DNA of 55,792 bases from Nemertoderma westbladi. Lineage: Eukaryota; Animalia; Xenacoelomorpha. The stretch covers positions 1 through 55,792 of the forward strand of contig JAUCBJ010004827.1 of assembly GCA_032718475.1 (NCBI GenBank). Direction: 5' to 3'. This document shows, piece by piece, positions 2,887 through 47,497 of the stretch (its first letter is position 1; each line of letters begins with the position of its first letter). Made by a program: the position numbers and the translations under genes. The notes under the pieces are model-generated. The model did no database searches, had not been told where the DNA came from, and saw only the letters and a program-made list of their open reading frames with translations.

Positions 2887-3069
2887 ATGATGATTGGGTC
2901 TACGAATTCCTCCACTACGGACTACCGCTTTGTCAACCGAGGAATTAACCACGAGTTTGGAATAGGCTCACAGTTTCGAGCATCCACTTCGGTGACCTCC
3001 GCTCATCATCAACTTTCTAGCGACGATATCAGGAGGCTTGCCGATGCCAAAGGCCGTCAAATTAAATTG
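2887..3069 (+). CDS. STARD3: STARD3/MLN64-like, probable coding exon 1
   Basis: ATG at 2887, 61 codons, then donor GTGAGT at 3070. Phase 0 fits exon 2. The peptide itself is not recognisably conserved. Confidence 0.6.
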
Positions 3070-6566: not shown

Positions 6567-6770
6567 CCCTGTTGCGAACTAAATTGGTGGAGATCTCGGG
6601 AAGTCTCTCCAGTAAGACGGACCTTCTGTCTGCTAACTTCCTTCGATTTGCTGATTATTTCTCTCATGTGGTTCATTTACCTCAACCTGATTCCCCACGA
6701 TTCTTTTCTCGATGAGTTTTATTCGCAGGTCGTTAATTACTCCATCAATACCTCGATGTTCGATATCGTG
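6567..6770 (+). CDS. STARD3: STARD3/MLN64-like exon 2 (start of MENTAL domain)
   Basis: tttcag| PCCELNWWRSREVSPVRRTFCLLTSFDLLIISLMWFIYLN...NYSINTSMFDIV |gtaagt. Matches the VRRTFCLFVTFDLLFISLLW...TSFFDI signature of STARD3/STARD3NL. Phase 0/0. Confidence 0.93.
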
Positions 6771-7632: not shown

Positions 7633-7764
7633 GTTCTTTCCTTTGTTAGAATGTGTATGCTATTGGTCGCCTATTTATTACTCCACAGCAACCATTGGTG
7701 GATGGTTGCCATAACAACTACTCTTAGTGGATCTTTCCTTATTTGTAAAGTATTTTTAGTTCAG
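7633..7764 (+). CDS. STARD3: STARD3/MLN64-like exon 3 (MENTAL transmembrane helices)
   Basis: ttttag| VLSFVRMCMLLVAYLLLHSNHWWMVAITTTLSGSFLICKVFLVQ |gtgagt. Matches the HWWVIAVTTLVSSAFLIVKV motif. Phase 0/0. Confidence 0.93.
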
Positions 7765-8444: not shown

Positions 8445-8622
8445 AAGTTTGTTAACGCCTTGGCGTACGTGATCCTGCTTGCGTCATTCACAATGAGTTG
8501 GATCGAAGTTTGGATTCTAGACTTTCGAGTTCTTCCTCGGGAACGGAAGGACTTTATCCAATCGCTACATACGTGGCCAGGAGCGGCAGAAAATCAGCCA
8601 TTACTGTCCAATCAGTACGGAG
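8445..8622 (+). CDS. STARD3: STARD3/MLN64-like exon 4 (end of MENTAL domain)
   Basis: ttacag| KFVNALAYVILLASFTMSWIEVWILDFRVLPRE...QPLLSNQYG g|gtgagt. Matches SFVLAWLETWFLDFKVLPQE. Phase 0/1. Confidence 0.93.
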
Positions 8623-11600
8623 GTGAGTTGTTCTGTCCAATTAGTGCGGAGGTGAGTTGTTCTGTCCAATCAGCACGGAGGTGAGTTGTTCTGTCCAATC
8701 AGTACGGAGGTGAGTTGTTCTGTCCAATTAGTGCGGAGGTGAGTTGTTCTGTCCAATCAGCACGGAGGTGAGTTGTTCTGTCCAATCAGTACGGAGGTGA
8801 GTTGTTCTGTCCAATCAGTACGGAGGTGAGTTGTTCTGTCCAATCAGTACGGAGGTGAGTTGTTCTGTTCAATTAGTGCGGAGGTGAGTTGTTCTGTCCA
8901 ATTAGTGCGGAGGTGAGTTGTTCTGTCCAATTACTGCGGAGGTGAGTTGTTCTGTTCAATTACTGCGGAGGTGAGTTGTTCTGTCCAATTACTGCGGAGG
9001 TGAGTTGTTCTGTTCAATCAGTACGGAGGTGAGTTGTTCTGTTCAATCAGTACGGAGGTGAGTTGTTCTGTCCAATCAGTACGGAGGTGAGTTGTTCTGT
9101 CCAATCAGTACGGAGGTGAGTTGTTCTGTTCAATTAGTGCGGAGGTGAGTTGTTCTGTTCAATTAGTGCGGAGGTGAGTTGTTCTGTTCAATTAGTGCGG
9201 AGTTGAGTTGTTCTGTTCAATCAGTACGGAGGTGAGTTGTTCTGTTCAATTAGTGCGGAGGTGAGTTGTTCTGTCCAATTACTGCGGAGGTGAGTTGTTC
9301 TGTTCAATTAGTACGGAGGTGAGTTGTTCTGTCCAATCAGTACGGAGGTGAGTTGTTCTGTTCAATCAGTACGGAGGTGAGTTGTTCTGTCCAATCAGTA
9401 CGGAGGTGAGTTGTTCTGTTCAATTAGTGCGGAGGTGAGTTGTTCTGTTCAATTAGTGCGGAGGTGAGTTGTTCTGTCCAATTAGTGCGGAGGTGAGATG
9501 TTCTGTCCAATTACTGCGGAGGTGAGTTGTTCTGTCCAATCAGTACGGAGGTGAGTTGTTCTGTCCTCAATCAGTACGGAGGTGAGTTGTTCTGTCCAAT
9601 CAGTACGGAGGTGAGTTGTTCTGTCCTCAATCAGTACGGAGGTGAGTTGTTCTGTCCAATCAGTACGGAGGTGAGTTGTTCTGTCCTCAATCAGTACGGA
9701 GGTGAGTTGTTCTGTCCAATTACTGCGGAGGTGAGTTGTTCTGTTCAATTAGTGCGGAGGTGAGTTGTTCTGTTCAATCAGTACGGAGGTGAGTTGTTCT
9801 GTTCAATCAGTACGGATGTGAGTTGTTCTGTCCAATCAGTACGGAGGTGAGTTGTTCTGTCCAATCAGTACGGAGGTGAGTTGTTCTGTCCAATCAGTAC
9901 GGAGGTGAGTTGTTCTGTTCAATTAGTGCGGAGGTGAGTTGTTATGTCCAATCAGTACGGAGGTGAGTTGTTCTGTTCAATCAGTACGGAGGTGAGTTGT
10001 TCTGTTCAATTAGTGCGGAGGTGAGTTGTTATGTCCAATCAGTACGGAGGTGAGTTGTTCTGTCCAATCAGTACGGAGGTGAGTTGTTCTGTTCAATTAG
10101 TGCGGAGGTGAGTTGTTCTATCCAATCAGTACGGAGGTGAGTTGTTCTGTCCAATCAGTACGGAGGTGAGTTGTTCTGTCCTCAATCAGTACGGAGGTGA
10201 GTTGTTCTGTCCAATCAGTACGGAGGTGAGTTGTTATGTCCAATCAGTACGGAGGTGAGTTGTTCTGTCCAATCAGTACGGAGGTGAGTTGTTCTGTTCA
10301 ATTAGTGCGGAGGTGAGTTGTTATGTCCAATCAGTACGGAGGTGAGTTGTTCTGTTCAATTAGTGCGGAGGTGAGTTGTTCTATCCAATCAGTACGGAGG
10401 TGAGTTGTTCTGTCCAATCAGTACGGAGGTGAGTTGTTCTGTCCTCAATCAGTACGGAGGTGAGTTGTTCTGTCCAATCAGTACGGAGGTGAGTTGTTCT
10501 GTTCAATTAGTGCGGAGGTGAGTTGTTCTGTCCAATCAGTACGGATGTGAGTTGTTCTGTCCAATCAGTACGGAGGTGAGTTGTTCTGTCCAATCAGTAC
10601 GGAGGTGAGTTGTTCTGTCCAATCAGTACGGAGGTGAGTTGTTCTGTTCAATCAGTACGGAGGTGAGTTGTTCTGTTCAATCAGTACGGATGTGAGTTGT
10701 TCTGTCCAATCAGTACGGAGGTGAGTTGTTCTGTCCAATCAGTACGGAGGTGAGTTGTTCTGTTCAATTAGTGCGGAGGTGAGTTGTTCTGTCCAATCAG
10801 TACGGAGGTGAGTTGTTCTGTTCAATTAGTGCGGAGGTGAGTTGTTCTGTCCAATCAGTACGGAGGTGAGTTGTTCTGTCCAATCAGTACGGAGGTGAGT
10901 TGTTCTGTCCTCAATCAGTACGGAGGTGAGTTGTTCTGTCCAATCAGTACGGAGGTGAGTTGTTCTGTTCAATTAGTGCGGAGGTGAGTTGTTCTGTCCA
11001 ATCAGTACGGATGTGAGTTGTTCTGTCCAATCAGTACGGAGGTGAGTTGTTCTGTCCAATCAGTACGGAGGTGAGTTGTTCTGTCCAATCAGTACGGAGG
11101 TGAGTTGTTCTGTCCAATCAGTACGGAGGTGAGTTGTTCTGTTCAATCAGTACGGAGGTGAGTTGTTCTGTTCAATCAGTACGGAGGTGAGTTGTTCTGT
11201 CCAATCAGTACGGAGGTGAGTTGTTCTGTCCAATCAGTACGGAGGTGAGTTGTTCTGTTCAATTAGTGCGGAGGTGAGTTGTTCTGTCCAATCAGTACGG
11301 AGGTGAGTTGTTCTGTTCAATTAGTGCGGAGGTGAGTTGTTCTGTCCAATCAGTACGGAGGTGAGTTGTTCTGTCCAATCAGTACGGAGGTGAGTTGTTC
11401 TGTTCAATCAGTACGGAGGTGAGTTGTTCTGTCCAATCAGTACGGAGGTGAGTTGTTCTGTTCAATCAGTACGGAGGTGAGTTGTTCTGTTCAATCAGTA
11501 CGGAGGTGAGTTGTTCTGTCCAATCAGTACGGAGGTGAGTTGTTCTGTCCAATCAGTACGGAGGTGAGTTGTTCTGTTCAATTAGTGCGGAGGTGAGTTG

Positions 11601-14600
11601 TTCTGTCCAATCAGTACGGAGGTGAGTTGTTCTGTTCAATTAGTGCGGAGGTGAGTTGTTCTGTCCAATTAGTGCGGAGGTGAGTTGTTCTGTTCAATCA
11701 GTACGGAGGTGAGTTGTTCTGTCCAATTAGTGCGGAGGTGAGTGGTTCTGTCCAATCAGTACGGAGGTGAGTTGTTCTGTCCAATCAGTACGGAGGTGAG
11801 TTGTTCTGTCCAATCAGTACGGAGGTGAGTTGTTCGGTTCAATTAGTGCGGAGGTGAGTTGTTCTGTCCAATCAGTACGGAGGTGAGTTGTTCTGTTCAA
11901 TTAGTGCGGAGGTGAGTTGTTCTGTCCAATCAGTACGGAGGTGAGTTGTTCTGTCCAATCAGTACGGAGGTGAGTTGTTCTGTCCAATCAGTACGGAGGT
12001 GAGTTGTTCTGTTCAATTAGTGCGGAGGTGAGTTGTTCTGTCCAATCAGTACGGAGGTGAGTTGTTCTGTCCAATCAGTACGGAGGTGAGTTGTTCTGTC
12101 CAATCAGTACGGAGGTGAGTTGTTCTGTTCAATTAGTGCCCAGGTGAGTTGTTCTGTCCAATCAGTACGGAGGTGAGTTGTTCTGTCCAATCAGTACGGA
12201 GGTGAGTTGTTCTGTTCAATCAGTACGGAGGTGAGTTGTTCTGTCCAATCAGTACGGAGGTGAGTTGTTCTGTTCAATTAGTGCGGAGGTGAGTTGTTCT
12301 GTCCAATTAGTGCGGAGGTGAGTTGTTCTGTTCAATTAGTGCGGAGGTGAGTTGTTCTGTCCAATCAGTACGGAGGTGAGTTGTTCTGTTCAATCAGTAC
12401 GGAGGTGAGTTGTTCTGTTCAATCAGTACGGAGGTGAGTTGTTCTGTCCAATCAGTACGGAGGTGAGTTGTTCTGTTCAATTAGTGCGGAGGTGAGTTGT
12501 TCTGTCCAATCAGTACGGAGGTGAGTTGTTCTGTTCAATCAGTACGGAGGTGAGTTGTTCTGTTCAATCAGTACGGAGGTGAGTTGTTCTGTCCAATCAG
12601 TACGGAGGTGAGTTGTTCTGTCCAATCAGTACGGAGGTGAGTTGTTCTGTTCAATTAGTGCGGAGGTGAGTTGTTCTGTCCAATCAGTACGGAGGTGAGT
12701 TGTTCTGTTCAATTAGTGCGGAGGTGAGTTGTTCTGTCCAATCAGTACGGAGGTGAGTTGTTCTGTCCAATCAGTACGGAGGTGAGTTGTTCTGTCCAAT
12801 CAGTACGGAGGTGAGTTGTTCTGTTCAATTAGTGCGGAGGTGAGTTGTTCTGTCCAATTACTGCGGAGGTGAGTTGTTCTGTTCAATTAGTGCGGAGGTG
12901 AGTTGTTCTGTCCAATTAGTGCGGAGGTGAGTTGTTCTGTCCAATTACTGCGGAGGTGAGTTGTTCTGTCCAATTACTGCGGAGGTGAGTTGTTCTGTTC
13001 AATTAGTGCGGAGGTGAGTTGTTCTGTTCAATCAGTACGGAGGTGAGTTGTTCTGTTCAATCAGTACGGAGGTGAGTTGTTCTGTCCAATCAGTACGGAG
13101 GTGAGTTGTTCTGTTCAATTAGTGCGGAGGTGAGTTGTTCTGTCCAATTACTGCGGAGGTGAGTTGTTCTGTTCAATTAGTGCGGAGGTGAGTTGTTCTG
13201 TCCAATTAGTGCGGAGGTGAGTTGTTCTGTCCAATTACTGCGGAGGTGAGTTGTTCTGTCCAATTACTGCGGAGGTGAGTTGTTCTGTTCAATTAGTGCG
13301 GAGGTGAGTTGTTCTGTTCAATTAGTGCGGAGGTGAGTTGTTCTGTCCAATTACTGCGGAGGTGAGTTGTTCTGTCCAATTACTGCGGAGGTGAGTTGTT
13401 CTGTCCAATCAGTACGGAGGTGAGTTGTTCTGTTCAATCAGTACGGAGGTGAGTTGTTCTGTTCAATTAGTGCGGAGGTGAGTTGTTCTGTCCAATTACT
13501 GCGGAGGTGAGTTGTTCTGTTCAATTAGTGCGGAGGTGAGTTGTTCTGTCCAATTAGTGCGGAGGTGAGTTGTTCTGTCCAATTACTGCGGAGGTGAGTT
13601 GTTCTGTCCAATTACTGCGGAGGTGAGTTGTTCTGTTCAATTAGTGCGGAGGTGAGTTGTTCTGTTCAATTAGTGCGGAGGTGAGTTGTTCTGTCCAATT
13701 AGTGCGGAGGTGAGTTGTTCTGTTCAATTAGTGCGGAGGTGAGTTGTTCTGTCCAATCAGTACGGAGGTGAGTTGTTCTGTTCAATCAGTACGGAGGTGA
13801 GTTGTTCTGTTCAATTAGTGCGGAGGTGAGTTGTTCTGTCCAATTACTGCGGAGGTGAGTTGTTCTGTCCAATTACTGCGGAGGTGAGTTGTTCTGTCCA
13901 ATCAGTACGGAGGTGAGTTGTTCTGTTCAATCAGTACGGAGGTGAGTTGTTCTGTCCAATTACTGCGGAGGTGAGTTGTTCTGTCCAATTACTGCGGAGG
14001 TGAGTTGTTCTGTCCAATTAGTGCGGAGGTGAGTTGTTCTGTCCAATCAGTACGGAGGTGAGTTGTTCTGTTCAATCAGTACGGAGGTGAGTTGTTCTGT
14101 TCAATTAGTGCGGAGGTGAGTTGTTCTGTCCAATTACTGCGGAGGTGAGTTGTTCTGTTCAATTAGTGCGGAGGTGAGTTGTTCTGTCCAATTAGTGCGG
14201 AGGTGAGTTGTTCTGTCCAATTACTGCGGAGGTGAGTTGTTCTGTCCAATTACTGCGGAGGTGAGTTGTTCTGTCCAATTACTGCGGAGGTGAGTTGTTC
14301 TGTTCAATTAGTGCGGAGGTGAGTTGTTCTGTTCAATTAGTGCGGAGGTGAGTTGTTCTGTCCAATTAGTGCGGAGGTGAGTTGTTCTGTCCAATTACTG
14401 CGGAGGTGAGTTGTTCTGTCCAATTACTGCGGAGGTGAGTTGTTCTGTCCAATCAGTACGGAGGTGAGTTGTTCTGTTCAATCAGTACGGAGGTGAGTTG
14501 TTCTGTTCAATCAGTACGGAGGTGAGTTGTTCTGTTCAATCAGTACGGAGGTGAGTTGTTCTGTCCAATCAGTACGGAGGTGAGTTGTTCTGTCCAATCA

Positions 14601-17600
14601 GTACGGAGGTGAGTTGTTCTGTTCAATTAGTGCGGAGGTGAGTTGTTCTGTCCAATCAGTACGGAGGTGAGTTGTTCTGTTCAATCAGTACGGAGGTGAG
14701 TTGTTCTGTTCAATCAGTACGGAGGTGAGTTGTTCTGTTCAATCAGTACGGAGGTGAGTTGTTCTGTTCAATCAGTACGGAGGTGAGTTGTTCTGTTCAA
14801 TTAGTGCGGAGGTGAGTTGTTCTGTCCAATCAGTACGGAGGTGAGTTGTTCTGTCCAATTACTGCGGAGGTGAGTTGTTCTGTCCAATCAGTACGGAGGT
14901 GAGTTGTTCTGTTCAATCAGTACGGAGGTGAGTTGTTCTGTTCAATCAGTACGGAGGTGAGTTGTTCTGTTCAATCAGTACGGAGGTGAGTTGTTCTGTC
15001 CAATCAGTACGGAGGTGAGTTGTTCTGTCCAATCAGTACGGAGGTGAGTTGTTCTGTTCAATTAGTGCGGAGGTGAGTTGTTCTGTCCAATCAGTACGGA
15101 GGTGAGTTGTTCTGTTCAATTAGTGCGGAGGTGAGTTGTTCTGTCCAATCAGTACGGAGGTGAGTTGTTCTGTCCAATCAGTATGGAGGTGAGTTGTTCT
15201 GTTCAATCAGTACGGAGGTGAGTTGTTCTGTTCAATTAGTGCGGAGGTGAGTTGTTCTGTCCAATCAGTACGGAGGTGAGTTGTTCTGTCCAATCAGTAC
15301 GGAGGTGAGTTGTTCTGTTCAATCAGTACGGAGGTGAGTTGTTCTGTTCAATTAGTGCGGAGGTGAGTTGTTCTGTCCAATCAGTACGGAGGTGAGTTGT
15401 TCTGTTCAATTAGTGCGGAGGTGAGTTGTTCTGTCCAATCAGTACGGAGGTGAGTTGTTCTGTCCAATCAGTATGGAGGTGAGTTGTTCTGTTCAATCAG
15501 TACGGAGGTGAGTTGTTCTGTTCAATTAGTGCGGAGGTGAGTTGTTCTGTCCAATCAGTACGGAGGTGAGTTGTTCTGTCCAATCAGTACGGAGGTGAGT
15601 TGTTCTGTTCAATCAGTACGGAGGTGAGTTGTTCTGTTCAATTAGTGCGGAGGTGAGTTGTTCTGTCCAATCAGTACGGAGGTGAGTTGTTCTGTTCAAT
15701 TAGTGCGGAGGTGAGTTGTTCTGTCCAATTAGTGCGGAGGTGAGTTGTTCTGTCCAATTACTGCGGAGGTGAGTTGTTCTGTCCAATCAGTACGGAGGTG
15801 AGTTGTTCTGTTCAATTAGTGCGGAGGTGAGTTGTTCTGTCCAATCAGTACGGAGGTGAGTTGTTCTGTTCAATTAGTGCGGAGGTGAGTTGTTCTGTCC
15901 AATCAGTACGGAGGTGAGTTGTTCTGTTCAATTAGTGCGGAGGTGAGTTGTTCTGTCCAATCAGTACGGAGGTGAGTTGTTCTGTCCAATCAGTATGGAG
16001 GTGAGTTGTTCTGTTCAATCAGTACGGAGGTGAGTTGTTCTGTTCAATTAGTGCGGAGGTGAGTTGTTCTGTCCAATCAGTACGGAGGTGAGTTGTTCTG
16101 TCCAATCAGTACGGATGTGAGTTGTTCTGTTCAATCAGTACGGAGGTGAGTTGTTCTGTTCAATTAGTGCGGAGGTGAGTTGTTCTGTCCAATCAGTACG
16201 GAGGTGAGTTGTTCTGTTCAATTAGTGCGGAGGTGAGTTGTTCTGTCCAATCAGTACGGAGGTGAGTTGTTCTGTCCAATCAGTACGGAGGTGAGTTGTT
16301 CTGTTCAATCAGTACGGAGGTGAGTTGTTCTGTTCAATTAGTGCGGAGGTGAGTTGTTCTGTCCAATCAGTACGGAGGTGAGTTGTTCTGTTCAATCAGT
16401 ACGGAGGTGAGTTGTTCTGTTCAATTAGTGCGGAGGTGAGTTGTTCTGTCCAATCAGTACGGAGGTGAGTTGTTCTGTCCAATCAGTACGGAGGTGAGTT
16501 GTTCTGTCCAATCAGTACGGAGGTGAGTTGTTCTGTTCAATTAGTGCGGAGGTGAGTTGTTCTGTCCAATTAGTGCGGAGGTGAGTTGTTCTGTCCAATT
16601 ACTGCGGAGGTGAGTTGTTCTGTCCAATCAGTACGGAGGTGAGTTGTTCTGTTCAATTAGTGCGGAGGTGAGTTGTTCTGTCCAATCAGTACGGAGGTGA
16701 GTTGTTCTGTTCAATCAGTACGGAGGTGAGTTGTTCTGTTCAATTAGTGCGGAGGTGAGTTGTTCTGTCCAATCAGTGCGGAGGTGAGTTGTTCTGTTCA
16801 ATCAGTACGGAGGTGAGTTGTTCTGTTCAATTAGTGCGGAGGTGAGTTGTTCTGTCCAATTACTGCGGAGGTGAGTTGTTCTGTCCAATCAGTACGGAGG
16901 TGAGTTGTTCTGTTCAATTAGTGCGGAGGTGAGTTGTTCTGTCCAATCAGTACGGAGGTGAGTTGTTCTGTTCAATTAGTGCGGAGGTGAGTTGTTCTGT
17001 CCAATCAGTACGGAGGTGAGTTGTTCTGTTCAATCAGTACGGAGGTGAGTTGTTCTGTTCAATTAGTGCGGAGGTGAGTTGTTCTGTCCAATCAGTACGG
17101 AGGTGAGTTGTTCTGTTCAATTAGTGCGGAGGTGAGTTGTTCTGTCCAATCAGTACGGAGGTGAGTTGTTCTGTTCAATCAGTACGGAGGTGAGTTGTTC
17201 TGTTCAATTAGTGCGGAGGTGAGTTGTTCTGTCCAATCAGTACGGAGGTGAGTTGTTCTGTCCAATCAGTACGGAGGTGAGTTGTTCTGTTCAATCAGTA
17301 CGGAGGTGAGTTGTTCTGTTCAATTAGTGCGGAGGTGAGTTGTTCTGTCCAATCAGTACGGAGGTGAGTTGTTCTGTCCAATCAGTACGGAGGTGAGTTG
17401 TTCTGTTCAATTAGTGCGGAGGTGAGTTGTTCTGTCCAATTAGTGCGGAGGTGAGTTGTTCTGTCCAATTACTGCGGAGGTGAGTTGTTCTGTCCAATCA
17501 GTACGGAGGTGAGTTGTTCTGTTCAATTAGTGCGGAGGTGAGTTGTTCTGTCCAATCAGTACGGAGGTGAGTTGTTCTGTTCAATCAGTACGGAGGTGAG

Positions 17601-18935
17601 TTGTTCTGTTCAATTAGTGCGGAGGTGAGTTGTTCTGTCCAATCAGTGCGGAGGTGAGTTGTTCTGTTCAATCAGTACGGAGGTGAGTTGTTCTGTTCAA
17701 TTAGTGCGGAGGTGAGTTGTTCTGTCCAATTACTGCGGAGGTGAGTTGTTCTGTCCAATCAGTACGGAGGTGAGTTGTTCTGTTCAATTAGTGCGGAGGT
17801 GAGTTGTTCTGTCCAATCAGTACGGAGGTGAGTTGTTCTGTTCAATTAGTGCGGAGGTGAGTTGTTCTGTCCAATCAGTACGGAGGTGAGTTGTTCTGTT
17901 CAATCAGTACGGAGGTGAGTTGTTCTGTTCAATTAGTGCGGAGGTGAGTTGTTCTGTCCAATCAGTACGGAGGTGAGTTGTTCTGTTCAATTAGTGCGGA
18001 GGTGAGTTGTTCTGTCCAATCAGTACGGAGGTGAGTTGTTCTGTTCAATCAGTACGGAGGTGAGTTGTTCTGTTCAATTAGTGCGGAGGTGAGTTGTTCT
18101 GTCCAATCAGTACGGAGGTGAGTTGTTCTGTTCAATCAGTACGGAGGTGAGTTGTTCTGTTCAATTAGTGCGGAGGTGAGTTGTTCTGTCCAATCAGTAC
18201 GGAGGTGAGTTGTTCTGTTCAATTAGTGCGGAGGTGAGTTGTTCTGTCCAATCAGTACGGAGGTGAGTTGTTCTGTTCAATCAGTACGGAGGTGAGTTGT
18301 TCTGTTCAATTAGTGCGGAGGTGAGTTGTTCTGTTCAATCAGTACGGAGGTGAGTTGTTCTGTTCAATTAGTGCGGAGGTGAGTTGTTCTGTCCAATCAG
18401 TACGGAGGTGAGTTGTTCTGTCCAATTAGTACGGAGGTGAGTTGTTCTGTCCAATCAGTACGGAGGTGAGTTGTTCTGTTCAATCAGTACGGAGGTGAGT
18501 TGTTCTGTTCAATTAGTGCGGAGGTGAGTTGTTCTGTCCAATCAGTACGGAGGTGAGTTGTTCTGTCCAATCAGTACGGATGTGAGTTGTTCTGTTCAAT
18601 CAGTACGGAGGTGAGTTGTTCTGTCCAATCAGTACGGAGGTGAGTTGTTCTGTCCAATCAGTACGGAGGTGAGTTGTTCTGTCCAATCAGTACGGAGGTG
18701 AGTTGTTCTGTTCAATTAGTGCGGAGGTGAGTTGTTCTGTCCAATCAGTACGGAGGTGAGTTGTTCTGTCCAATCAGTACGGAGGTGAGTTGTTCTGTTC
18801 AATTAGTGCGGAGGTGAGTTGTTCTGTCCAATTAGTGCGGAGGTGAGTTGTTCTGTCCAATTACTGCGGAGGTGAGTTGTTCTGTCCAATCAGTACGGAG
18901 GTGAGTTGTTCGGTCTAATCAGTGCGGTGGTGAAT
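8604..18935 (+). repeat. 29-bp minisatellite, ~355 copies, derived from the exon 4 / intron 4 junction
   Basis: Unit CTGTCCAATCAGTACGGAG|GTGAGTTGTT is the last 19 nt of exon 4 plus the first 10 nt of the intron. The first copy is the real junction. Confidence 0.98.
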
Positions 18936-18984
18936 TGTTTGAAAATTCAACAGTCCTACTGACACTTATAGAGACCCACTGAAA

Positions 18985-19973: not shown

Positions 19974-22900
19974 GTCGATGTATCCTAATGGTGTGGACGA
20001 TGTATCCTAGTTGAGTGGTGTGGGTGGACGATGTAGTGGTGTGGACTATGTATCCTAGTTGTGTGGACGATGTATCCTAGTGGTGTGGGTGGACTATGTA
20101 TCCTAGTGATGTGGGTGGACGATGTATCCTAGTGGTGTGTGTGGACGATGTATCCTAGTGGTGTGGGCGGACGATGTATCCTAGTTGTGTGGGTGGACGA
20201 TGTATCCTAGTGGTGTGGGTGGACGATGTATCCTAGTTGTGTGGACGATGTATCCTAGTGGTGTGGACGATGTATCCTAGTGGTGTGGACGATGTATCCT
20301 AGTGGTGTGGGTGGACGATGTATCCTAGTGGTGTGGACGATGTATCCTAGTTGTGTGGATGATGTATCCTAGTTGTGTGGACGATGTATCCTAGTGGTGT
20401 GGACGATGTATCCTAGTTGTGTGGATGATGTATCCTAGTTGTGTGGACGATGTATCCTAGTGGTGTGGGTGGACGATGTATCCTAGTGGTGTGGGTGGAC
20501 GATGTATCCTAGTGGTGTGGGTGGATGATGTATCCTAGTGGTGTGGGTGGACGATGTATCCTAGTTGTGTGGGCGGACGATGTATCCTAGTGGTGTGGAC
20601 GATGTATCCTAGTTGTGTGGACGATGTATCCTAGTGGTGTGGGTGGACGATGTTTCCTAGTGGTGTGGGTGGACGATGTATCCTAGTGGTGTGGGTGGAT
20701 GATGTATCCTAGTGGTGTGGGTGGACGATGTATCCTAGTTGTGTGGGCGGACGATGTATCCTAGTGGTGTGGACGATGTATCCTAGTTGTGTGGACGATG
20801 TATCCTAGTGGTGTGGGTGGACGATGTATCCTAGTGGTGTGGGTGGACGATGTATCCTAGTGGTGTGGGTGGATGATGTATCCTAGTGATGTGGGTGGAC
20901 GATGTATCCTAGTGGTGTGGACGATGTATCCTAGTTGTGTGGATGATGTATCCTAGTTGTGTGGACGATGTATCCTAGTGGTGTGGACGATGTATCCTAG
21001 TGGTGTGGGTGGACGATGTATCCTAGTGGTGTGGGTGGATGATGTATCCTAGTGGTGTGGGTGGACGATATATCGTAGTGGTGTGGACGATGTATCGTAG
21101 TGGTGTGGACGATATATCCTAGTGGTGTGGGTGGACGATGTATCCTAGTGGTGTGGACGATGTATCCTAGTGGTGTGGGTGGACGATGTATCCTAGTGGT
21201 GTGGGTGGATGATGTATCCTAGTGGTGTGGGTGGACGATATATCGTAGTGGTGTGGGTGGACGATGTATCCTAGTGGTGTGGACGATGTATCCTAGTGGT
21301 GTGGGTGGACGATGTATCCTAGTGGTGTGGGTGGATGATGTATCCTAGTGGTGTGGGTGGACGATGTATCGTAGTGGTGTGGACGATGTATCCTAGTGGT
21401 GTGGGTGGACGATGTATGCTAGTGGGTGGCAATGTGTCATAGTAGTGTGGCTGGACGATGTATCCTAGTTGTGTGGACGATGTAACCTAGTGGTGTGGGT
21501 GGACGATGTATCCTAGTTGTGTGGGTGGACGATGTATTCTAATGGTGTGGACGATGTATCCTAGAAGTGTGGGTGGACGATGTATCCTAGTTGTGTGGAC
21601 GATTTATCCTAGTTGTGTGGGTGGACGATATATCCTAGTTGTGTGGACGATGTATCCTAGTGGTGTGGGTGGACGATATATCCTAGTTGTGTGGACAATA
21701 TATCCTAGTGGTGTGGACGATTTATCCTAGTGGTGTGGGTGGGCGATATATCCTAGTTGTGTGGACGATGTATCCTAGTGGTGTGGACGATGTATCCTAG
21801 TGGTGTGGGTGGACGATATATCCTAGTGGTGCGGGTGGATGATGTATCCTAGTTGTGTGGACGATGTATCCTAGTGGTGTGGGTGGACGATATATCCTAG
21901 TTGTGTGGACAATATATCCTAGTGGTGTGGACGATTTATCCTAGTGGTGTGGGTGGACGATGTATCCTAGTTGTGTGGACGATGTATCCTAGTGGTGTGG
22001 ACGATGTATCCTAGTGGTGTAGGTGGACGATGTATCGTAGTGGTGTGGACGATGTATCCTAGTGGTGTGGGTGGACGATGTATCGTAGTGGTGTGGGTGG
22101 ACGATGTATCCTAGTGGTGTGGACGATGTATCCTAGTGGTGTGGGTGGACGATGTATCGTAGTGGTGTGGGTGGACGATGTATCGTAGTGGTGTGGGTGG
22201 ACGATGTATCCTAGTGGTGTAGGTGGACGATGTATCCTAGTGGTGTGGGTGGACGATGTATCCTAGTGGTGTGGGTGGACGATTTATCCTAGTTGTGTGG
22301 GTGGACGATGTATCCTAGTTGTGTGGATGATGTATCCTAGTGGTGTGGGTGGACGATGTATCCTAGTGGTGTGGGTGGACGATGTATCCTAGTGGTGTGG
22401 ACGATGTATTCTAATGGTGTGGACGATGTATCCTAGTGGTGCGGACGATGTATCATAGTGGTGTGGACGTTGTATCCTAGTGGTGTGGGTGGACGATTTA
22501 TCCTAGTTGTGTGGGTGGACGATGTATCCTAGTTGTGTGGGTGGACGATATATCGTAGTGGTGTGGGTGGACGATGTATCCTAGTGGTGTGGACGATGTA
22601 TCCTAGTGGTGTGGGTGGACGATTTATCCTAGTTGTGTGGGTGGACGATGTATCCTAGTTGTGTGGATGATGTATCCTAGTGGTGTGGGTGGACGATGTA
22701 TCCTAGTGGTGTGGGTGGACGATGTATCCTAGTGGTGTGGACGATGTATTCTAATGGTGTGGACGATGTATCCTAGTGGTGCGGACGATGTATCATAGTG
22801 GTGTGGACGTTGTATCCTAGTGGTGTGGGTGGACGATTTATCCTAGTTGTGTGGGTGGACGATGTATCCTAGTGGTGTGGGTGGACGAGTTATCCTAGTG

Positions 22901-23525
22901 GTGTGGGTGGACGATATATCCTAGTTGTGTGGGTGGACGATGTATCCTAGTGGTGTGGGTGGACGATGTATCCTAGTGGTGTGGACGATATATCCTAGTG
23001 GTGTGGACGATGTATCTTAGTGGTGTGGACGATTTATCCTAGTTGTGTGGGTGGACGATGTATCCTAGTGGTGTGGGTGGACGATGTATCCTAGTGGTGT
23101 GGGTGGACGATGTATCCTAGTGGTGTGAGTGGACGATGTATCCTAGTGGTGTGGGTGGACGATGTATCCTAGTGGTGTGGACGATATATCCTAGTGGTGT
23201 GGACGATGTATCTTAGTGGTGTGGACGATTTATCCTAGTTGTGTGGGTGGACGATGTATCCTAGTGGTGTGGGTGGACGATGTATCCTAGTGGTGTGTGT
23301 GGACGATGTATCCTAGTGGTGTGGGCGGACGATGTATCCTAGTGGTGTGGGTGGACGATGTATCCTAGTGATGTGGGTGGACGATGTATCCTAGTGGTGT
23401 GGGTGGACGATGTATCCTAGTGGTGTGGGTGGACGATGTATCCTAGTGGTGTGGGTGGACGATGTATCGTAGTGGTGTGGACGATGTATCCTAGCGGTGT
23501 GCACGATGTATCCTAGTGGACGATA
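19974..23525. repeat. 23/27-bp GT-rich minisatellite, ~140 copies
   Basis: Unit GACGATGTATCCTAGTGGTGTGG with an optional extra GTGG. Ends ~100 bp upstream of exon 5. Confidence 0.97.
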
Positions 23526-23623: not shown

Positions 23624-23692
23624 CTTTGGGGAGTAAAGCTTACAGCGGCATTTCTGGTGGAAGTTTTTACTCACCTATACATTCACCCGCCG
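23624..23692 (+). CDS. STARD3: STARD3/MLN64-like exon 5 (FYSP, FFAT-like linker)
   Basis: tttttag| (A)LGSKAYSGISGGSFYSPIHSPA g|gtaagt. Corresponds to the GQFYSPPES motif of STARD3. Phase 1/1. Confidence 0.9.
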
Positions 23693-27611: not shown

Positions 27612-27714
27612 GTTCTGATATTGAAGATCTTGAGGATGTTACCACTCAGTATGACGATGCCAAGAGCTTCGGTAAAGGCGAGTTCTGTTCTTTAGCTGGT
27701 AGTCTGCGGGGCAG
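27612..27714 (+). CDS. STARD3: STARD3/MLN64-like exon 6 (acidic linker)
   Basis: gtgttag| (G)SDIEDLEDVTTQYDDAKSFGKGEFCSLAGSLRG ag|gttagt. Continues the A-G-S-D acidic stretch seen after FYSP in STARD3. Phase 1/2 bridges exons 5 and 7. Confidence 0.8.
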
Positions 27715-27727
27715 GTTAGTTAGATTA

Positions 27728-28600: not shown

Positions 28601-28656
28601 AGATGAGCCATTAAGAATTGCTTCAGTTGACGGCAAGTTAAAATTAAATGTGTCAG

Positions 28657-36025: not shown

Positions 36026-36178
36026 TATTACTAATTTGGAACTTCCCGCCGACCAAATTGAAATGGTTCAGAAATCGTACGTCGCTTTCGATGAAGTTAT
36101 CAAAGTAGCGAACGACGATGTTGTTAATTGGAAACAAGAGAAACAAATCGGTGATGGGGATGCCAATATATACAGTTG
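36026..36178 (+). CDS. STARD3: STARD3/MLN64-like exon 7 (start of START domain)
   Basis: tttacag| ITNLELPADQIEMVQKSYVAFDEVIKVANDDVVNWKQEKQIGDGDANIYS tg|gtaagt. Matches the NWKFEK..GDTVYT region. Phase 2/2. Confidence 0.88.
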
Positions 36179-39100
36179 GTAAGTCGGGGAGAACAATATA
36201 TACAGTTGGTAAGTCAGGGAGGCCAATATCTACAGTTGGTAAGTCGGGGAGGCCAATATCTACAGCTGGTAAGTCGGGGGGCCAATGTCTACAGTTGGTA
36301 AGTCAGGGAGGCCAATATCTACAGTTTGTAAGTCGGGGAGGCCAATATCTACAGTTGGTTAGTCGGGGAGGCCAATATCTACAGTTGGTAATGGTAAGTC
36401 AGGGAGGCCAATATCTACAGTTGGTTAGTCGGGGAGGCCAATATCTACAGTTGGTAATGGTAAGCCAGGGAGGCCAATATATACAGTTGGTAAGTCGGGA
36501 GGACAATATCTACAGTTGGTAAGTCAGGGAGGCCAATATATACAGTTGGTAAGTCGGGGAGAACAATATATACAGTTGGTAAGTCAGGGAGGCCAATATC
36601 TACAGTTAGTAAGTCGGGGAGGACAATATATACAGTTGGTAAGTCAGGGAGGCCAATATCTACAGTTGGTAAGTCGGGGAGGCCAATATCTACAGCTGGT
36701 AAGTCGGGGGGCCAATGTCTACAGTTGGTAAGTCAGGGAGGCCAATATCTACAGTTTGTAAGTCGGGGAGGCCAATATCTACAGTTGGTTAGTCGGGGAG
36801 GCCAATATCTACAGTTGGTAATGGTAAGTCAGGGAGGCCAATATCTACAGTTGGTTAGTCGGGGAGGCCAATATCTACAGTTGGTAATGGTAAGCCAGGG
36901 AGGCCAATATATACAGTTGGTAAGTCGGGAGGACAATATCTACAGTTGGTAAGTCAGGGAGGCCAATATCTACAGTTGGTAAGTCGGGGAGGCCAATATA
37001 TACAGTTGGTAAGTCGGGAGGACAATATATACAGTTGGTAAGTCGTGGAGGACAATATCTACAGTTGGTTAGTCGGGGAGGCCAATATCTACAGCTTGTA
37101 AGTCGGGGAGGCCAATATCTACAGTTGGTAAGTCAGTGAGGCCAATATATACAGTTGGTAAGACGGGGAGGATAATATATACAGTTGGTAAGTCGGGGAG
37201 GACAATATATACATTTGGTAAGTCGGGAGGCCAATATCTACAGTTGGTAAGTCGGGAGGACAATATATACAGTTGGTAAGTCGGGAGGCCAATATCTACA
37301 GTTGGTAAGTCGGGGAGGCCAATATCTACAGCTGGTAAGTCGGGGGGCCAATATCTACAGCTGGTAAGTCGGGGAGGCCAATATCTACAGTTGGTAAGTC
37401 GGGAGGACAATATATACAGTTGGTAAGTCGGGAGGACAATATATACAGTTGGTAAGTCGGGAGGACAATATCTACAGTTGGTAAGTCCGGGAGATAAATA
37501 TCTACAGCTTGTAAGTCGGGGAGGCCAATATCTACAGTTGGTAAGTCAGTGAGGCCAATATATACAGTTGGTAAGACGGGGAGGATAATATATACAGTTG
37601 GTAAGTCGGGGGGCCAATATCTACAGCTGGTAAGTCGGGGAGGCCAATATCTACAGTTGGTAAGTCGGGAGGACAATATCTACAGTTGGTAAGTCCGGGA
37701 GATAAATATCTACAGCTTGTAAGTCGGGGAGGCCAATATCTACAGTTGGTAAGTCAGTGAGGCCAATATATACAGTTGGTAAGACGGGGAGGATAATATA
37801 TACAGTTGGTAAGTCGGGAGGCCAATATCTACAGTTGGTAAGTCGGGAGGACAATATATACAGCTTGTAAGTCGGGGAGGCCAATATCTACAGTTGGTAA
37901 GTCCGGGAGATAAATATCTACAGCTTGTAAGTCGGGGAGGCCAATATCTACAGTTGGTAAGTCAGTGAGGCCAATATATACAGTTGGTAAGACGGGGAGG
38001 ATAATATATACAGTTGGTAAGTCGGTAGGCCAATATCTACAGTTGGTAAGTCGGGAGGACAATATATACAGTTGGTAAGTCGGGAGGACAATATCTACAG
38101 TTGGTAAGTCGGGGAGGCCAATATCTACAGCTGGTAAGTCGGGGGGGGGGCAATATCTACAGCTGGTTAGTCGGGGAGGCCAATATCTACAGTTGGTAAG
38201 TCGGGAGGCCAATATCTACAGTTGGTAAGTCGGGGAGGCCAATATCTACAGTTGGTAAGTCGGGAGGCCAATATCTACAGTTGGTAAGTCGGGGAGGCCA
38301 ATGTCTACAGTTGGTAAGTCGGGAGGACAATATATACAGTTGGTAAGTCGGGGAGGACAATATATACAGTTGGTAAGTCAGGGAGGCCAATATCTACAGT
38401 TGGTAAGTCGGAGAGGCCAATATCTACAGCTGGTAAGTCGGGGGGCCAATGTCTACAGTTGGTAAGTCGGGAGGACAATATATACAGTTGGTAAGTCGGG
38501 AGGACAATATCTACAGTTGGTAAGTCCGGGAGATAAATATCTACAGCTTGTAAGTCGGGGAGGCCAATATCTACAGTTTGTAAGTCAGGGAGGCCAATAT
38601 CTACAGTTGGTAAGTCGGAGAGGCCAATATCTACAGCTGGTAAGTCGGGGGGCCAATGTCTACAGTTGGTAAGTCGGGAGGACAATATCTACAGTTTGTA
38701 AGTCCGGGAGATAAATATCTACAGCTTGTAAGTCGGGGAGGCCAATATCTACAGTTGGTAAGTCAGTGAGGCCAATATATACAGTTGGTAAGTCGGGAGG
38801 ACAATATCTACAGTTGGTAAGTCCGGGAGATAAATATCTACAGCTTGTAAGTCGGGGAGGCCAATATCTACAGTTGGTAAGTCAGTGAGGCCAATATATA
38901 CAATTGGTAAGACGGGGAGGATAATATATACAGTTGGTAAGTCGGGAGGCCAATATCTACAGTTGGTAAGTCGGGAGGACAATATATACAGTTGGTAAGT
39001 CGGGAGGACAATATCTACAGTTGGTAAGTCGGGGAGGCCAATATCTACAGTTGGTAAGTCAGTGAGGCCAATATATACAATTGGTAAGACGGGGAGGATA

Positions 39101-41780
39101 ATATATACAGTTGGTAAGTCGGGAGGCCAATATCTACAGTTGGTTAGTCGGGAGGACAATATCTACAGCTGGTAAGCCGGGAGGACAATATATACAGTTG
39201 GTAAGTCAGTGAGGCCAATATATACAATTGGTAAGACGGGGAGGATAATATATACAGTTGGTAAGTCGGGAGGCCAATATCTACAGTTGGTAAGTCGGGA
39301 GGACAATATATACAGTTGGTAAGCCGGGAGGCCAATATATACAATTGGTAAGACGGGGAGGATAATATATACAGTTGGTAAGTCGGGAGGCCAATATCTA
39401 CAGTTGGTTAGTCGGGAGGACAATATCTACAGCTGGTAAGCCGGGAGGACAATATATACAGTTGGTAAGTCAGTGAGGCCAATATATACAATTGGTAAGA
39501 CGGGGAGGATAATATATACAGTTGGTAAGTCGGGAGGCCAATATCTACAGTTGGTAAGTCGGGAGGACAATATATACAGTTGGTAAGCCGGGAGGACAAT
39601 ATATACAATTGGTAAGACGGGGAGGATAATATATACAGTTGGTAAGTCGGGAGGCCAATATCTACAGTTGGTAAGTCGGGAGGACAATATATACAGTTGG
39701 TAAGCCGGGAGGACAATATATACAGTTGGTAAGTCAGTGAGGCCAATATATACAGTTGGTAAGACGGGGAGGATAATATATACAGTTGGTAAGTCGGGAG
39801 GCCAATATCTACAGTTGGTAAGTCGGGAGGACAATATATACAGTTGGTAAGCCGGGAGGACAATATATACAGTTGGTAAGTCAGTGAGGCCAATATATAC
39901 AGTTGGTAAGTCGGGGAGGATAATATATACAGTTGGTAAGTCGGGAGGCCAATATCTACAGTTGGTAAGTCGGGAGGACAATATATACAGTTGGTAAGCC
40001 GGGAGGACAATATATACAGTTGGTAAGTCGGGAGGACAATATATACAGTTGGTAAGTCAGTGAGGTCAATATATACAATTGGTAAGACGGGGAGGATAAT
40101 ATATACAGTTGGTAAGTCGGGAGGCCAATATCTACAGTTGGTAAGTCGGGAGGACAATATATACAGTTGGTAAGCCGGGAGGACAATATATACAGTTGGT
40201 AAGTCAGTGAGGCCAATATATACAGTTGGTAAGACGGGGAGGATAATATATACAGTTGGTAAGTCGGAAGGCCAATATCTACAGTTGGTAAGTCGGGAGG
40301 ACAATATATACAGTTGGTAAGCCGGGAGGACAATATATACAGTTGGTAAGTCGGGAGGCCAATATCTACAGTTGGTAAGACGGGGAGGATAATATATACA
40401 GTTGGTAAGTCGGGAGGCCAATATCTACAGTTGGTAAGACGGGGAGGATAATATATACAGTTGGTAAGTCGGGAGGCCAATATCTACAGTTGGTAAGTCG
40501 GGAGGACAATATATACAGTTGGTAAGTCGGGAGGACAATATATACAGTTGGTAAGTCGGGGAGGCCAATATCTACAGTTGGTAAGACGGGGAGGATAATA
40601 TATACAGTTGGTAAGTCGGGAGGCCAATATCTACAATTGGTAAGTCGGGAGGACAATATATACAGTTGGTAAGACGGGGAGGATAATATATACAGTTGGT
40701 AAGTCGGGAGGCCAATATCTACAGTTGGTAAGTCGGGAGGACAATATATACAGTTGGTAAGTCGGGAGGACAATATATACAGTTGGTAAGTCAGGGAGGC
40801 CAATATATACAGTTGGTAAGTCAGTGAGGCCAATATATACAATTGGTAAGACGGGGAGGATAATATATACAGTTGGTAAGTCGGGAGGCCAATATCTACA
40901 GTTGGTAAGTCGGGAGGACAATATATACAGTTGGTAAGCCGGGAGGACAATATCTACAGTTGGTAAGTCAGTGAGGCCAATATATACAATTGGTAAGACG
41001 GGGAGGATAATATATACAGTTGGTAAGTCGGGAGGCCAATATCTACAGTTGGTAAGTCGGGAGGACAATATATACAGTTGGTAAGCCGGGAGGACAATAT
41101 ATACAGTTGGTAAGTCAGTGAGGCCAATATATACAGTTGGTAAGACGGGGAGGATAATATATACAGTTGGTAAGTCGGGAGGCCAATATCTACAGTTGGT
41201 AAGTCGGGAGGACAATATATACAGTTGGTAAGTCGGGAGGACAATATATACAGTTGGTAAGTCAGGGAGGCCAATATATACAGTTGGTAAGTCGGGGAGG
41301 CCAATATCTACAGTTGGTAAGTCGGGGGGCCAATGTCTACAGTTGGTAAGTCAGGGAGGCCAATATCTACAGTTGGTAAGTCGGGGAGGCCAATATCTAC
41401 AGCTTGTAAGTCGGGGAGGCCAATATCTACAGTTGGTAAGTCAGTGAGGCCAATATATACAGTTGGTAAGACGGGGAGGATAATATATACAGTTGGTAAG
41501 TCGGGGAGGACAATATATACAGTTGGTAAGTCGGGAGGACAATATCTACAGTTGGTAAGTCGGGGAGGCCAATATCTACAGCTTGTAAGTCGGGGAGGCC
41601 AATATCTACAGTTGGTAAGTCAGTGAGGCCAATATATACAGTTGGTAAGACGGGGAGGATAATATATACAGTTGGTAAGTCGGGGAGGACAATATATACA
41701 GTTGGTAAGTCAGGGAGGCCAATATCTACAGTTGGTAAGTCGGGGAGGCCAATATCTACAGTTGGTAAGTCGGGGAGGGC
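36156..41780 (+). repeat. 29-30-bp minisatellite block A, ~190 copies, derived from the exon 7 / intron 7 junction
   Basis: Unit GGGGAGGCCAATATMTACAGTTG|GTAAGTC corresponds to the last 23 nt of exon 7 (one mismatch) plus 7 nt of intron. Confidence 0.98.
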
Positions 41781-42461
41781 AATTTGTTTCCGAAAGTCAA
41801 CTTCAGCTTGCTGTTGATGTTGACAAGGTTTTAACAGAGAATGACGGGCATATGCCGATTTTAATTTTGATTATATATTTATTTTGACAAAACCACAAAC
41901 TAAATCTACCATAAAAATGTAGCAGTGGTGGGAACTTTAATATATTTATGTTCTGAAAGGGAGATATATTATAATTGACCCAAAACCCGCCTTGAATGAA
42001 TCAACATTGTTGAATTTGAATTTAGGTTTGCAGCGGCAGTCTATTCTAACCAAAACAATAAAGGAAAGTCTATTACACGGTTACAGTTTCATTTTTGCTC
42101 AGTAATCAGCTGTTATTTGCATCCGTTTTCCCCTGGATATGGTTGAATTTTGATTGTGTCTTAAAGCATTTTTGTTATTTATATAAATGTAGCCACGACC
42201 GGAAATCCGTAACTAACTATTTACAACCGTTTGATAAACCCCTATCAATGACCATCAATCGGCCGAGCCAACCATCTCTGATAACGAGGCAAAAAAGGTG
42301 AAAATTTCGTAATTTGTTTTTAAACTGTTCTTATTTCATTGATATTTTAATTTATAATAATTATATTGCCATTGTCGTTGTTCTTTCTAAGTTTTTCCCT
42401 TTTTTCGAACCGTATCATATCCTTTTTTTCCTTTTTTTTTTTTAAAATCGAAATTTCTAGT

Positions 42462-44077: not shown

Positions 44078-44210
44078 TGAATGGTGCGATTATGGGAAAA
44101 TATTTCGTCTAGATGGCCGGTTATATAGTTCAGCGCTGACGTTTTTCACGCATATAACGCAAGATGTTTCTAAACAACCCCTATGGAATCCTAATGTAAA
44201 GTCTGCCCGG
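44078..44210 (+). CDS. STARD3: STARD3/MLN64-like exon 8 (START domain; gene incomplete in window)
   Basis: tttcag| (C)EWCDYGKIFRLDGRLYSSALTFFTHITQDVSKQPLWNPNVKSAR |gtaagt. Matches HGKTF...LWNKTV. Phase 2/0. Confidence 0.88.
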
Positions 44211-44274
44211 GTAAGTTAAGTAACTTAATATGGTTTAGTATTAAGGTAAAAGATACTAAAACCCCACCGAATTG

Positions 44275-46564: not shown

Positions 46565-47205
46565 TCTAAGTCCTTCACGTGTAACGCCATCACTAACTTA
46601 ATATCTAAGTCCTTCACGTGTAACTAAGTCCTTCACATGTAACGCCATCACTAACTTAATATCTAAGTCCTTCACGTGTAACGACATCACTAACTTAATC
46701 TTTTAAGTCCTTCACGTGTAACGCCATCACTAACTTAATATCTAAGTCCTTCACGTGTAACGACATCACTAACTTAATCTTTTAAGTCCTTCACGTGTAA
46801 CGCCATCACTAACTTAATATCTAAGTCCTTCACGTGTAACGACATCACTAACTTAATCTTTTAAGTCCTTCACGTGTAACGCCATCACTAACTTAATATC
46901 TAAGTCCTTCACGTGTAACGCCATCACTAACTTAATATCTAAGTCCTTCACGTGTAATAAGTCCTTCACATGTAACGCCATCACTAACTTAATCTCTAAG
47001 TCCTTCACGTGTAACGCCATCACTAACTTAATATCTAAGTCCTTCACGTGTAACGCCATCACTAACTTAATCTTTAAGTCCTTCACGTGTAACTAAGTCC
47101 TTCACATGTAACGCCATCACTAACTTAATATCTAAGTCCTTCACGTGTAACGCCATCACTAACTTAATCTCTAAGTCCTTCACGTGTAACGCCATCACTA
47201 ACTTC
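46565..47205. repeat. 39-bp minisatellite, ~17 copies
   Basis: Unit TCTAAGTCCTTCACGTGTAACGCCATCACTAACTTAATA with a few short internal units. Directly abuts the 55-bp array. Confidence 0.96.
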
Positions 47206-47497
47206 AATCGAGAAGTTCTTACCAGACACAACACGCTTAATTCCGTTTGACAATTGTAATTGCATGACGATTAAGAAGTACTGTTTTAGAATAGCAAATA
47301 AAGAAAGGTAAACTCATGAGCTTTTCATAAACCCTTTAGGTAGTACTAGGTAATACAGACTACAGATACAATATTACTACAGTAGTTTATACTAAATACT
47401 GTAATACAGAAACCATCGACTATTGTTAATTTGACCCTGACTGCCTGATTTGTAAAAAGAAACTCCACTCTTATTGCTAGGTATTTTCAGGCCCAAC

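What the first reader, a model, noticed from the sequence alone, without database searches (positions are those of the whole stretch)
8604..18935. A 10-kb array of ~355 copies of the gene's own 5' splice site
Seen: the 29-bp unit is exactly the last 19 nt of STARD3 exon 4 plus the donor (GGAG|GTGAGTTGTT), and copy 1 is the true junction. Recurrent variation (TCC/TTC; CAGTAC/TAGTGC/TACTGC) lies in the exon-derived part, while GTGAGT is almost invariant. Donors 2-3 shift the frame, and any later donor includes the in-frame TGA at 8682-8684. Known: AG|GTGAGT is a near-consensus U1 snRNP site. Inference: the spliceosome must pick the first of hundreds of equivalent donors. The array could be a neutral by-product, a U1 sink or telescripting platform, or a copy-number-tuned dial for unproductive splicing.
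Basis: partly seen in the sequence, partly recalled or inferred. Interest (0 to 1): 0.9.

Follow-up and report, generated by a model that had tools for sequence, protein, structure and literature searches.

The report
Giant splice-donor minisatellites in STARD3 introns
A 29-base piece covering the end of one exon of an invertebrate cholesterol-transport gene and its predicted splice signal is repeated 356 times into the next intron, a second exon of the same gene carries a similar array, and the cell likely uses mainly the first signal, as in repeats of this kind already known from human and lancelet genes.

Summary
The array is real: 356 units of 29 bp (8604-18939), 353 with GTGAGT, starting 19 nt inside a STARD3-like exon. 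Homology, not RNA, supports copy 1 as the true donor; every later donor tested gives a frameshift or stop. The U1-pairing bases are not significantly more conserved than the rest of the unit, and in the second array they vary. Best reading: a neutral minisatellite born across a donor, tolerated because the most upstream donor likely wins. The class is known: human F7, CBS, 6-16 and ABCA7 (alleles up to about 427 units, 10.7 kb), and amphioxus 'mirages'. This scan has reported it on other DNA (18 earlier notes, unchecked). Donor use and copy-number effects are untested, as no RNA run was listed. One open lead: arrays here sit unusually close to splice sites (4 of the other 7 within 120 nt; post hoc P about 0.002-0.02). 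New, very large member of a known kind; low interest.

The parts
8604..18939 (+). Donor array 1: 29-bp minisatellite, 356 units; unit = last 19 nt of the exon + 10 intron nt; last unit degenerate
8445..8622 (+). Fourth coding exon of the STARD3-like gene (end of MENTAL domain); predicted donor GT at 8623, phase 1
   Evidence: Pfam PF10457 E 3.6e-11; open frame; collinear join to the next exon
8682..8684 (+). In-frame TGA included if donor 4 or any later donor is used
2887..3069 (+). Predicted first coding exon (ATG at 2887 or 2890)
   Evidence: open frame into the next exon; no Pfam hit; inferred
6567..6770 (+). Coding exon 2, MENTAL domain
   Evidence: (E 5.7e-16)
7633..7764 (+). Coding exon 3, MENTAL domain
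   Evidence: (E 1.5e-12)
20036..23519 (+). Unrelated 26-bp minisatellite (143 copies) in the same intron, ending 104 nt before the acceptor
23624..23692 (+). Coding exon 5, carrying the conserved FYSP motif (the label FFAT-like is recalled)
   Evidence: aligns to homolog profile positions 226-241
27612..27648 (+). Coding exon 6; start supported, 3' end unresolved (27648 is one candidate, with a weak donor)
36026..36178 (+). START-domain exon; predicted donor GT at 36179, phase 2
   Evidence: joined to 44078-44210 it matches the homolog profile, E 3.2e-13
36157..44003 (+). Donor array 2: 29/30-bp minisatellite, 240 donor-anchored units; unit = last ~22 nt of the exon + GTAAGT + 1-2 nt; each of the later donors tested (2-8) adds an in-frame TAA
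41780..42470 (.). About 690-nt insertion inside array 2; a 130-nt part matches three dispersed copies in the window (74-77% identity)
44078..44210 (+). Next START-domain exon, last one found in the window
   Evidence: profile hit iE 1.4e-05
44274..47209 (+). 55-bp (42 copies) and 39-bp arrays starting 63 nt after the donor at 44211

Best explanation
It is an intronic minisatellite whose founding 29-bp duplication straddled the end of a STARD3-like exon and its predicted splice donor, and which likely grew by ordinary repeat turnover, without selection for the extra donors, while splicing likely keeps using the first donor. Shown: the unit anatomy, the mosaic of variant units, a second unrelated donor array in the same gene, the repeat-rich surroundings, and that only donor 1 keeps the conserved protein. 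Inferred: a duplication spanning a donor is tolerated because all added copies fall in the intron. Slippage or unequal exchange then amplifies it in blocks. The most upstream donor wins because it is made first and closes an exon of normal size (first-come or exon-definition choice, shown for human F7). Any leak to donors 2-3, or to 7+29n-nt pseudo-exons, yields a premature stop and would be removed by nonsense-mediated decay. Selection therefore needs to act only on copy 1.
For: (1) Turnover signature: rare variants cluster locally, one 27-unit block recurs 30 units later (shuffles: mean 7, maximum 13 of 200), and the last unit is degenerate. (2) Eight arrays cover 26,738 of 55,792 bases; six of them do not span a donor. 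(3) No significant extra conservation of GTGAGT or -3..+6 in array 1; in array 2 only 165 of 240 units keep copy 1's 9-mer. (4) Array 2 tolerates a ~690-nt insertion. (5) The donor-1 join scores 238.6 bits against a profile of 42 homologs and runs collinear through FYSP, against 210-211 bits for donors 2-4. (6) Copy 1 is no more accessible than later copies (mean unpaired 0.42 against 0.42-0.52), so the choice is likely positional. (7) Precedent: in F7 only the most upstream of 5-9 identical donors is used (PMC1557585); amphioxus mirages do not disturb splicing (PMC3087553).
Against: No RNA evidence from this organism. No variant present in two or more copies falls in the 10 intron-derived bases of array 1 (hypergeometric P 0.005, 1 of 29 circular placements, threshold chosen after the fact). 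Two donor arrays in one gene, and arrays close to splice sites, are more than uniform seeding predicts (P 0.068 for the second donor array; 0.002-0.02 for proximity), so array birth may not be random with respect to exons. In human 6-16 and CBS two further donors are used. In ABCA7 single-unit retention occurs, and expression and exon skipping change with length. 'Neutral' may therefore be too strong at 10 kb.
Confidence: 0.72

Rival explanations
1. Unselected but consequential load: the array is an accident, yet at 10 kb it measurably lowers STARD3 output (slower splicing, some use of donor 2, skipping of the 69-nt exon 5), as long ABCA7 alleles do.
For: ABCA7: 33% lower expression and 3.2-fold more exon-19 skipping between the largest and smallest allele pairs, and one-unit retention is seen (PMC5954066 passages). 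Here 346 of 356 units keep the donor 9-mer, an 8 of 9 consensus match; exon 5 is short and in frame; 322 of 356 units also hold a YAG 7 nt before the donor.
Against: In ABCA7, retention of one unit did not change with length. F7 pseudo-donors stay silent. The array's internal acceptors are less T-rich (7 T in 17 nt) than seven real acceptors of this gene (9-12). Nothing was measured here.
Confidence: 0.17
2. Selected regulatory element: the repeated donors are kept as a U1-loading platform or a copy-number dial for unproductive splicing.
For: The intron-derived 10 nt are the least variable stretch of the unit at low thresholds (P 0.005-0.03). Two arrays arose independently in the same gene (their units share only a 7-nt match). 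Every alternative use tested makes a stop.
Against: The U1-pairing 9-mer itself is not significantly conserved (P 0.09-0.77), and invariance extends to +7..+10 and to several exon-derived positions that do not pair with U1. Array 2 has common variants at -3, -1, +3 and +6. Array 1 has no poly(A) hexamer to protect. That one gene's nascent RNA cannot titrate the U1 pool rests on my recalled knowledge of U1 abundance. Stops follow from unit length and phase without any selection.
Confidence: 0.06
3. The array's length is largely an assembly artefact (a short repeat inflated by the assembler).
For: No reads could be laid on it; long repeats are error-prone in assemblies (general knowledge).
Against: 22 unit types in a non-periodic mosaic, locally clustered rare variants and a longest exact repeat of only 27 of 356 units. 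Unique flanks join correctly to a coherent gene. Array 2 contains a dispersed-repeat insertion.
Confidence: 0.03
4. The locus is a decaying or truncated STARD3 copy, so splicing fidelity is no longer under selection.
For: No exon for the C-terminal ~130 profile positions of the START domain was found in the 11.5 kb after 44210, and the end of exon 27612 has no strong in-frame donor.
Against: The first five exons join without a stop, and 33 open models through 44210 exist. Seven mapped donors match the consensus at 7-9 of 9 positions. Introns are 0.7-15 kb, so further exons can lie beyond the window.
Confidence: 0.03

Closest known systems
Human ABCA7 intron 18 25-bp VNTR (De Roeck et al. 2018, PMC5954066; passages read)
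   Same: Every unit repeats the exon's donor; alleles run from 12 to about 427 units (10,678 bp), the same size as here; use of the second donor gives a frameshift.
   Different: The ABCA7 unit starts at the GT, while this one carries 19 exon bases. Length polymorphism and its effects on skipping and expression are measured for ABCA7 and untested here. One array is described there, two here.
Human F7 intron 7 37-bp VNTR, with CBS intron 13, 6-16 intron 2, lamin B2 and PDGF intron 4 as listed in its introduction (Borensztajn et al. 2006, PMC1557585; abstract, introduction and discussion read)
   Same: The first unit spans the exon-intron boundary, so identical donors follow the real one. Only the first is used in F7, lamin B2 and PDGF; the first three in 6-16 and CBS.
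   Different: Those arrays have 5 to about 26 copies against 356 and 240 here; donor use here is inferred from homology only.
Amphioxus 'mirages' in Adh3, BflGb6 and BflGb9 (Ebner et al. 2010, PMC3087553; passages read; the original Adh3 paper PMC117041 was not held)
   Same: Invertebrate minisatellites spanning exon-intron boundaries, units of 10-160 bp, reported not to disturb normal splicing, suggested to be general in that lineage.
   Different: The BflGb6 array has 3-6 units and BflGb9 a single duplicate; mirages include acceptor-side duplications. The host here is not amphioxus (its BRE1 is at most 66% identical to Branchiostoma over the C-terminal 269 aa).

Membership tests
Donor-spanning minisatellite (F7/CBS/ABCA7 type; amphioxus mirage) | Head-to-tail units of minisatellite size | tested here: met
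   29 bp x 356; 29/30 bp x 240
Donor-spanning minisatellite (F7/CBS/ABCA7 type; amphioxus mirage) | First unit includes the authentic exon-intron boundary, so the donor is reiterated in the intron | tested here: met
   Boundary placed by open frame and homology, not by RNA; 353 GTGAGT
Donor-spanning minisatellite (F7/CBS/ABCA7 type; amphioxus mirage) | Interspersed variant units, block turnover, divergent edge unit | tested here: met
Donor-spanning minisatellite (F7/CBS/ABCA7 type; amphioxus mirage) | Splicing uses the first, or the first few, donors | not testable with these tools
   No sequencing run was available to lay on the locus
Donor-spanning minisatellite (F7/CBS/ABCA7 type; amphioxus mirage) | Length varies between alleles (VNTR) | not testable with these tools
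   One haplotype only; no genome held
STARD3 (MENTAL + START) | MENTAL domain | tested here: met
   PF10457 on three exons
STARD3 (MENTAL + START) | START domain following MENTAL | tested here: inconclusive
   The N-terminal part matches a profile of MENTAL+START homologs (E 3.2e-13; 5 of 6 homologs checked carry START); the C-terminal part was not found in the window
Selected U1-binding platform | U1-pairing bases more conserved than the rest of the unit | tested here: not met
   -3..+6 P 0.09-0.77 and GTGAGT P 0.06-0.41 in array 1; common variants at -3, -1, +3, +6 in array 2. The wider 10-nt intron block is nominally low in array 1 only.
Recursive-splicing ratchet points (definition recalled) | Pyrimidine tract + YAG directly followed by GT (zero-length exon) | tested here: not met
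   The AG before GT is GAG; the YAG lies 7 nt upstream in 322 of 356 units

The most novel reading that the evidence does not exclude
In this lineage minisatellites are born preferentially at exon edges and inflate short introns up to about 100-fold, and the hundreds of intact donors in the STARD3 arrays are kept by selection as an allele-length dial on productive splicing.
Probability: 0.07. Interest if true: 0.75.

Novelty: new member of a known kind. Interest (0 to 1): 0.24.

Why it matters
As it stands it extends a known oddity: two of the largest donor arrays among those I found described (comparable to the longest ABCA7 alleles) lie in one invertebrate gene. It would be a demanding natural test of first-donor selection outside mammals, with 346 identical donors at 29-nt spacing. 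The more general lead is the exon-edge bias of minisatellite birth: an intron whose non-repeat 3' remainder is 74 nt is now 7.9 kb. A genome-wide count could test this, and it would bear on how introns grow. A selected splicing dial would be new, but nothing here supports it beyond one threshold-dependent statistic.

Tried and rejected
RNA evidence: the look-up of sequencing runs on the neighbouring BRE1 gene (48880-51990, kind rna) listed no run; this means 'none was listed', not evidence either way. No whole genome is held, so no genome-wide count of donor arrays was possible. Word-indexed homolog searches with exon 4 and exon 2 found nothing at E 0.001 or better; the profile search did. PDB sequence search gave only weak START-family matches for exon 44079-44210 (E 0.47-1.3) and unrelated ones for 36027-36176. 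The protein atlas did not answer. The 'open' models through exons 27612 and 32087 came from two compensating off-by-one coordinates and are rejected; with correct coordinates the candidate exon 32086-32106 does not close the frame. The simulation still used those two shifted boundaries and counted that unverified exon as one of 9 donors. RNA structure masking the later donors: rejected, accessibility is the same. Recursive splicing: rejected on unit anatomy. Common origin of the two donor arrays: rejected, only a 7-nt match. Literature searches for genome-wide exon-edge bias or invertebrate intron growth by minisatellites returned 0 papers and 3 papers (passages of PMC2812944 read: it reports repeats at exon-intron boundaries of duplicated human genes, and those passages gave no enrichment test). 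The search on closely spaced donors gave nothing used. Passages of PMC10078293 added only the ABCA7 reference. These searches cover open-access papers only. No supplements were read.
Full report
OBSERVATION. Tandem Repeats Finder gives an array at 8604-18939 with period 29, 356.0 copies and 93% matches. It holds 353 GTGAGT words, 344 of the 352 spacings being exactly 29. Splitting gives 356 units of 22 types; five types make up 322 units, and copy 1 is the commonest type, 129 of 356. 346 of 356 units carry copy 1's donor 9-mer, which matches the MAG/GURAGU consensus quoted in PMC1557585 at 8 of 9 positions.

GENE. Exons 2887-3069, 6567-6770, 7633-7764, 8445-8622 and 23624-23692 join into one open frame. 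Three of them hit Pfam MENTAL; of the seven pieces scanned, three had no family and one was BRE1. A search with exon 2 returned 118 homologs. I built a profile from the 42 of 400-520 aa; of 6 checked, 6 carry MENTAL and 5 START. The donor-1 product aligns to this profile through the FYSP motif of exon 5 with a single one-residue insertion after the junction (238.6 bits); donors 2, 3 and 4 score 210-211 because the match ends at the junction. Donor 2 shifts the frame and stops downstream of exon 5 (codon 297-305, depending on the model), donor 3 stops 11 nt into exon 5, and donor 4 and later include TGA 8682-8684. So copy 1 is the junction that keeps the protein; that it is the one used is inferred. 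The end of exon 27612 is unresolved, and no exon for the last ~130 profile positions lies in the window. Its BRE1 is 55-66% identical to named animals over the last 269 aa. In a quick tree with 30 of the 120 listed hits it is a long branch outside the protostome clade, placement unsure.

A SECOND DONOR ARRAY. The array at 36157-44003 begins about 22 nt inside exon 36026-36178 and repeats its end plus GTAAGT. That exon joined to 44078-44210 matches the N-terminal START region (E 3.2e-13 in a single-sequence search); reading through donor 2 needs a stop and an insertion of about 10 residues. It has 240 donor-anchored units (TRF's 264 includes an insertion), and each later donor tested (2-8) adds an in-frame TAA. 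Only 74 nt of that 7,899-nt intron lie beyond the array. A ~690-nt insertion, part of which matches three dispersed copies in the window, interrupts it. The two units are unrelated.

CONTEXT. Eight arrays cover 26,738 of 55,792 bases (48%, counting the insertion); the intron after exon 4 is 15,001 nt, of which 13,801 are two arrays. After collapsing each array to one unit, the chance that at least one of the other seven spans a donor is 0.068. Four of those seven lie within 120 nt of a splice site (P 0.002; 0.021 for three, since two are adjacent). The 120-nt limit was chosen after seeing the distances, and the model used two boundaries shifted by one base and one unverified exon. This is a lead, not a result. 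The four largest arrays are G-skewed on the sense strand (+0.28 to +0.53 against +0.01 for other non-coding DNA); two smaller ones are not (-0.04, -0.46). By eye, unit positions 16-24 match 8 of the first 9 letters of the human minisatellite core listed in PMC9069542, whose table also lists GTAAGT as an indel hotspot (passages). G-rich donors may thus be good seeds, which is speculation.

IS THE DONOR CONSERVED? Over thresholds of 1, 2, 3, 5 and 10 variant copies, P is 0.06-0.41 for GTGAGT and 0.09-0.77 for -3..+6. For the whole 10-nt intron block it is 0.005-0.16, lowest at 2 copies, where it is the only one of 29 placements free of variants. It is not repeated in array 2, where +6 differs in 44, -3 in 21, -1 in 15 and +3 in 8 of 240 units (+1, +2 and +4 were fixed by the search pattern, though the spacings show no missed unit). 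I read this as no evidence of selection on U1 pairing.

REAL OR ARTEFACT. Variant units form a non-periodic mosaic with local clusters and one 27-unit block repeated 30 units later (200 shuffles: mean 7, maximum 13); the last unit is degenerate. This is what minisatellite turnover looks like, and amphioxus mirages also have divergent edge units. The length is not confirmed by reads.

MECHANISM. Shown: anatomy, turnover pattern, unproductive outcome of every alternative tested (donors 2-5 of array 1; pseudo-exons of 7, 36, 65 and 94 nt from the YAG present in 322 of 356 units), equal predicted accessibility of the first and later donors, and no poly(A) hexamer in array 1. Inferred: chance birth across the donor, tolerance because the added copies are intronic, positional choice of the first donor, and decay of any leak. 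[quoted passage not shown]

KNOWN SYSTEMS. It is built like, and on the tested features belongs with, the donor-spanning minisatellites of F7, CBS, 6-16, lamin B2 and PDGF, ABCA7 and the amphioxus mirages. ABCA7 removes the claim to unique size: 25-bp units each with the donor, up to 10,678 bp or about 427 units, with one-unit retention seen and exon skipping rising with length. The scan's own notes list 18 similar findings in at least 11 genomes and more. These are unchecked AI notes, used as leads only; one pointed me to the lancelet literature, and one title suggests a gene with more than one such array. Nothing was noted on this genome or sequence.

VERDICT. Observation confirmed; interpretation partly supported; a new and very large member of a known kind. 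Interest 0.24, for the size, the second array and the exon-edge lead. Donor use, allele variation and any effect on expression are untested.

Noticed in passing
window 48886-51975 (-): Intronless BRE1/RNF20-40 E3 ligase ORF (about 1,028 aa, RING and BRE1 Pfam hits), antisense and likely nested in a STARD3 intron; possibly a retroposed copy; long branch in the tree.
   Followed up: partly
window 36157-44003: Second, independent donor array in the same gene (240 units), filling almost the whole intron.
   Followed up: yes
window 41780-42470: About 690-nt insertion in array 2, sharing ~130 nt with dispersed copies at 25488-25618, 28244-28377 and 31251-31386; likely a small transposon.
   Followed up: partly
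window 904-1709, 20036-23519, 44274-46565, 46566-47209, 53575-54723: Five further minisatellites. The 55-bp unit carries GTGAG on + (40 copies) and the 40-bp unit on - (19 copies) with no exon found at them, so donor-like words also occur in arrays not born at a mapped donor.
   Followed up: partly
window 28400-31250: By eye, a decayed LINE-like reverse-transcriptase region on the - strand (197-aa frame at 28965-29558), flanked by an inverted pair of dispersed repeats; not scanned against families.
   Followed up: no
window 27612-36025: The end of exon 27612 has no strong donor in the phase needed; an unrecognised small exon or a weak donor at 27649 is required.
   Followed up: partly
window 40-130: Short ATG-to-TAA frame followed by a donor-like GT at about 152; may belong to a 5' UTR exon or a neighbouring gene (seen).
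   Followed up: no
window 3240-3360 and 3690-3815: By eye, inverted arms around a short element inside the first intron (MITE-like), with an internal direct repeat at about 3380-3560.
   Followed up: no
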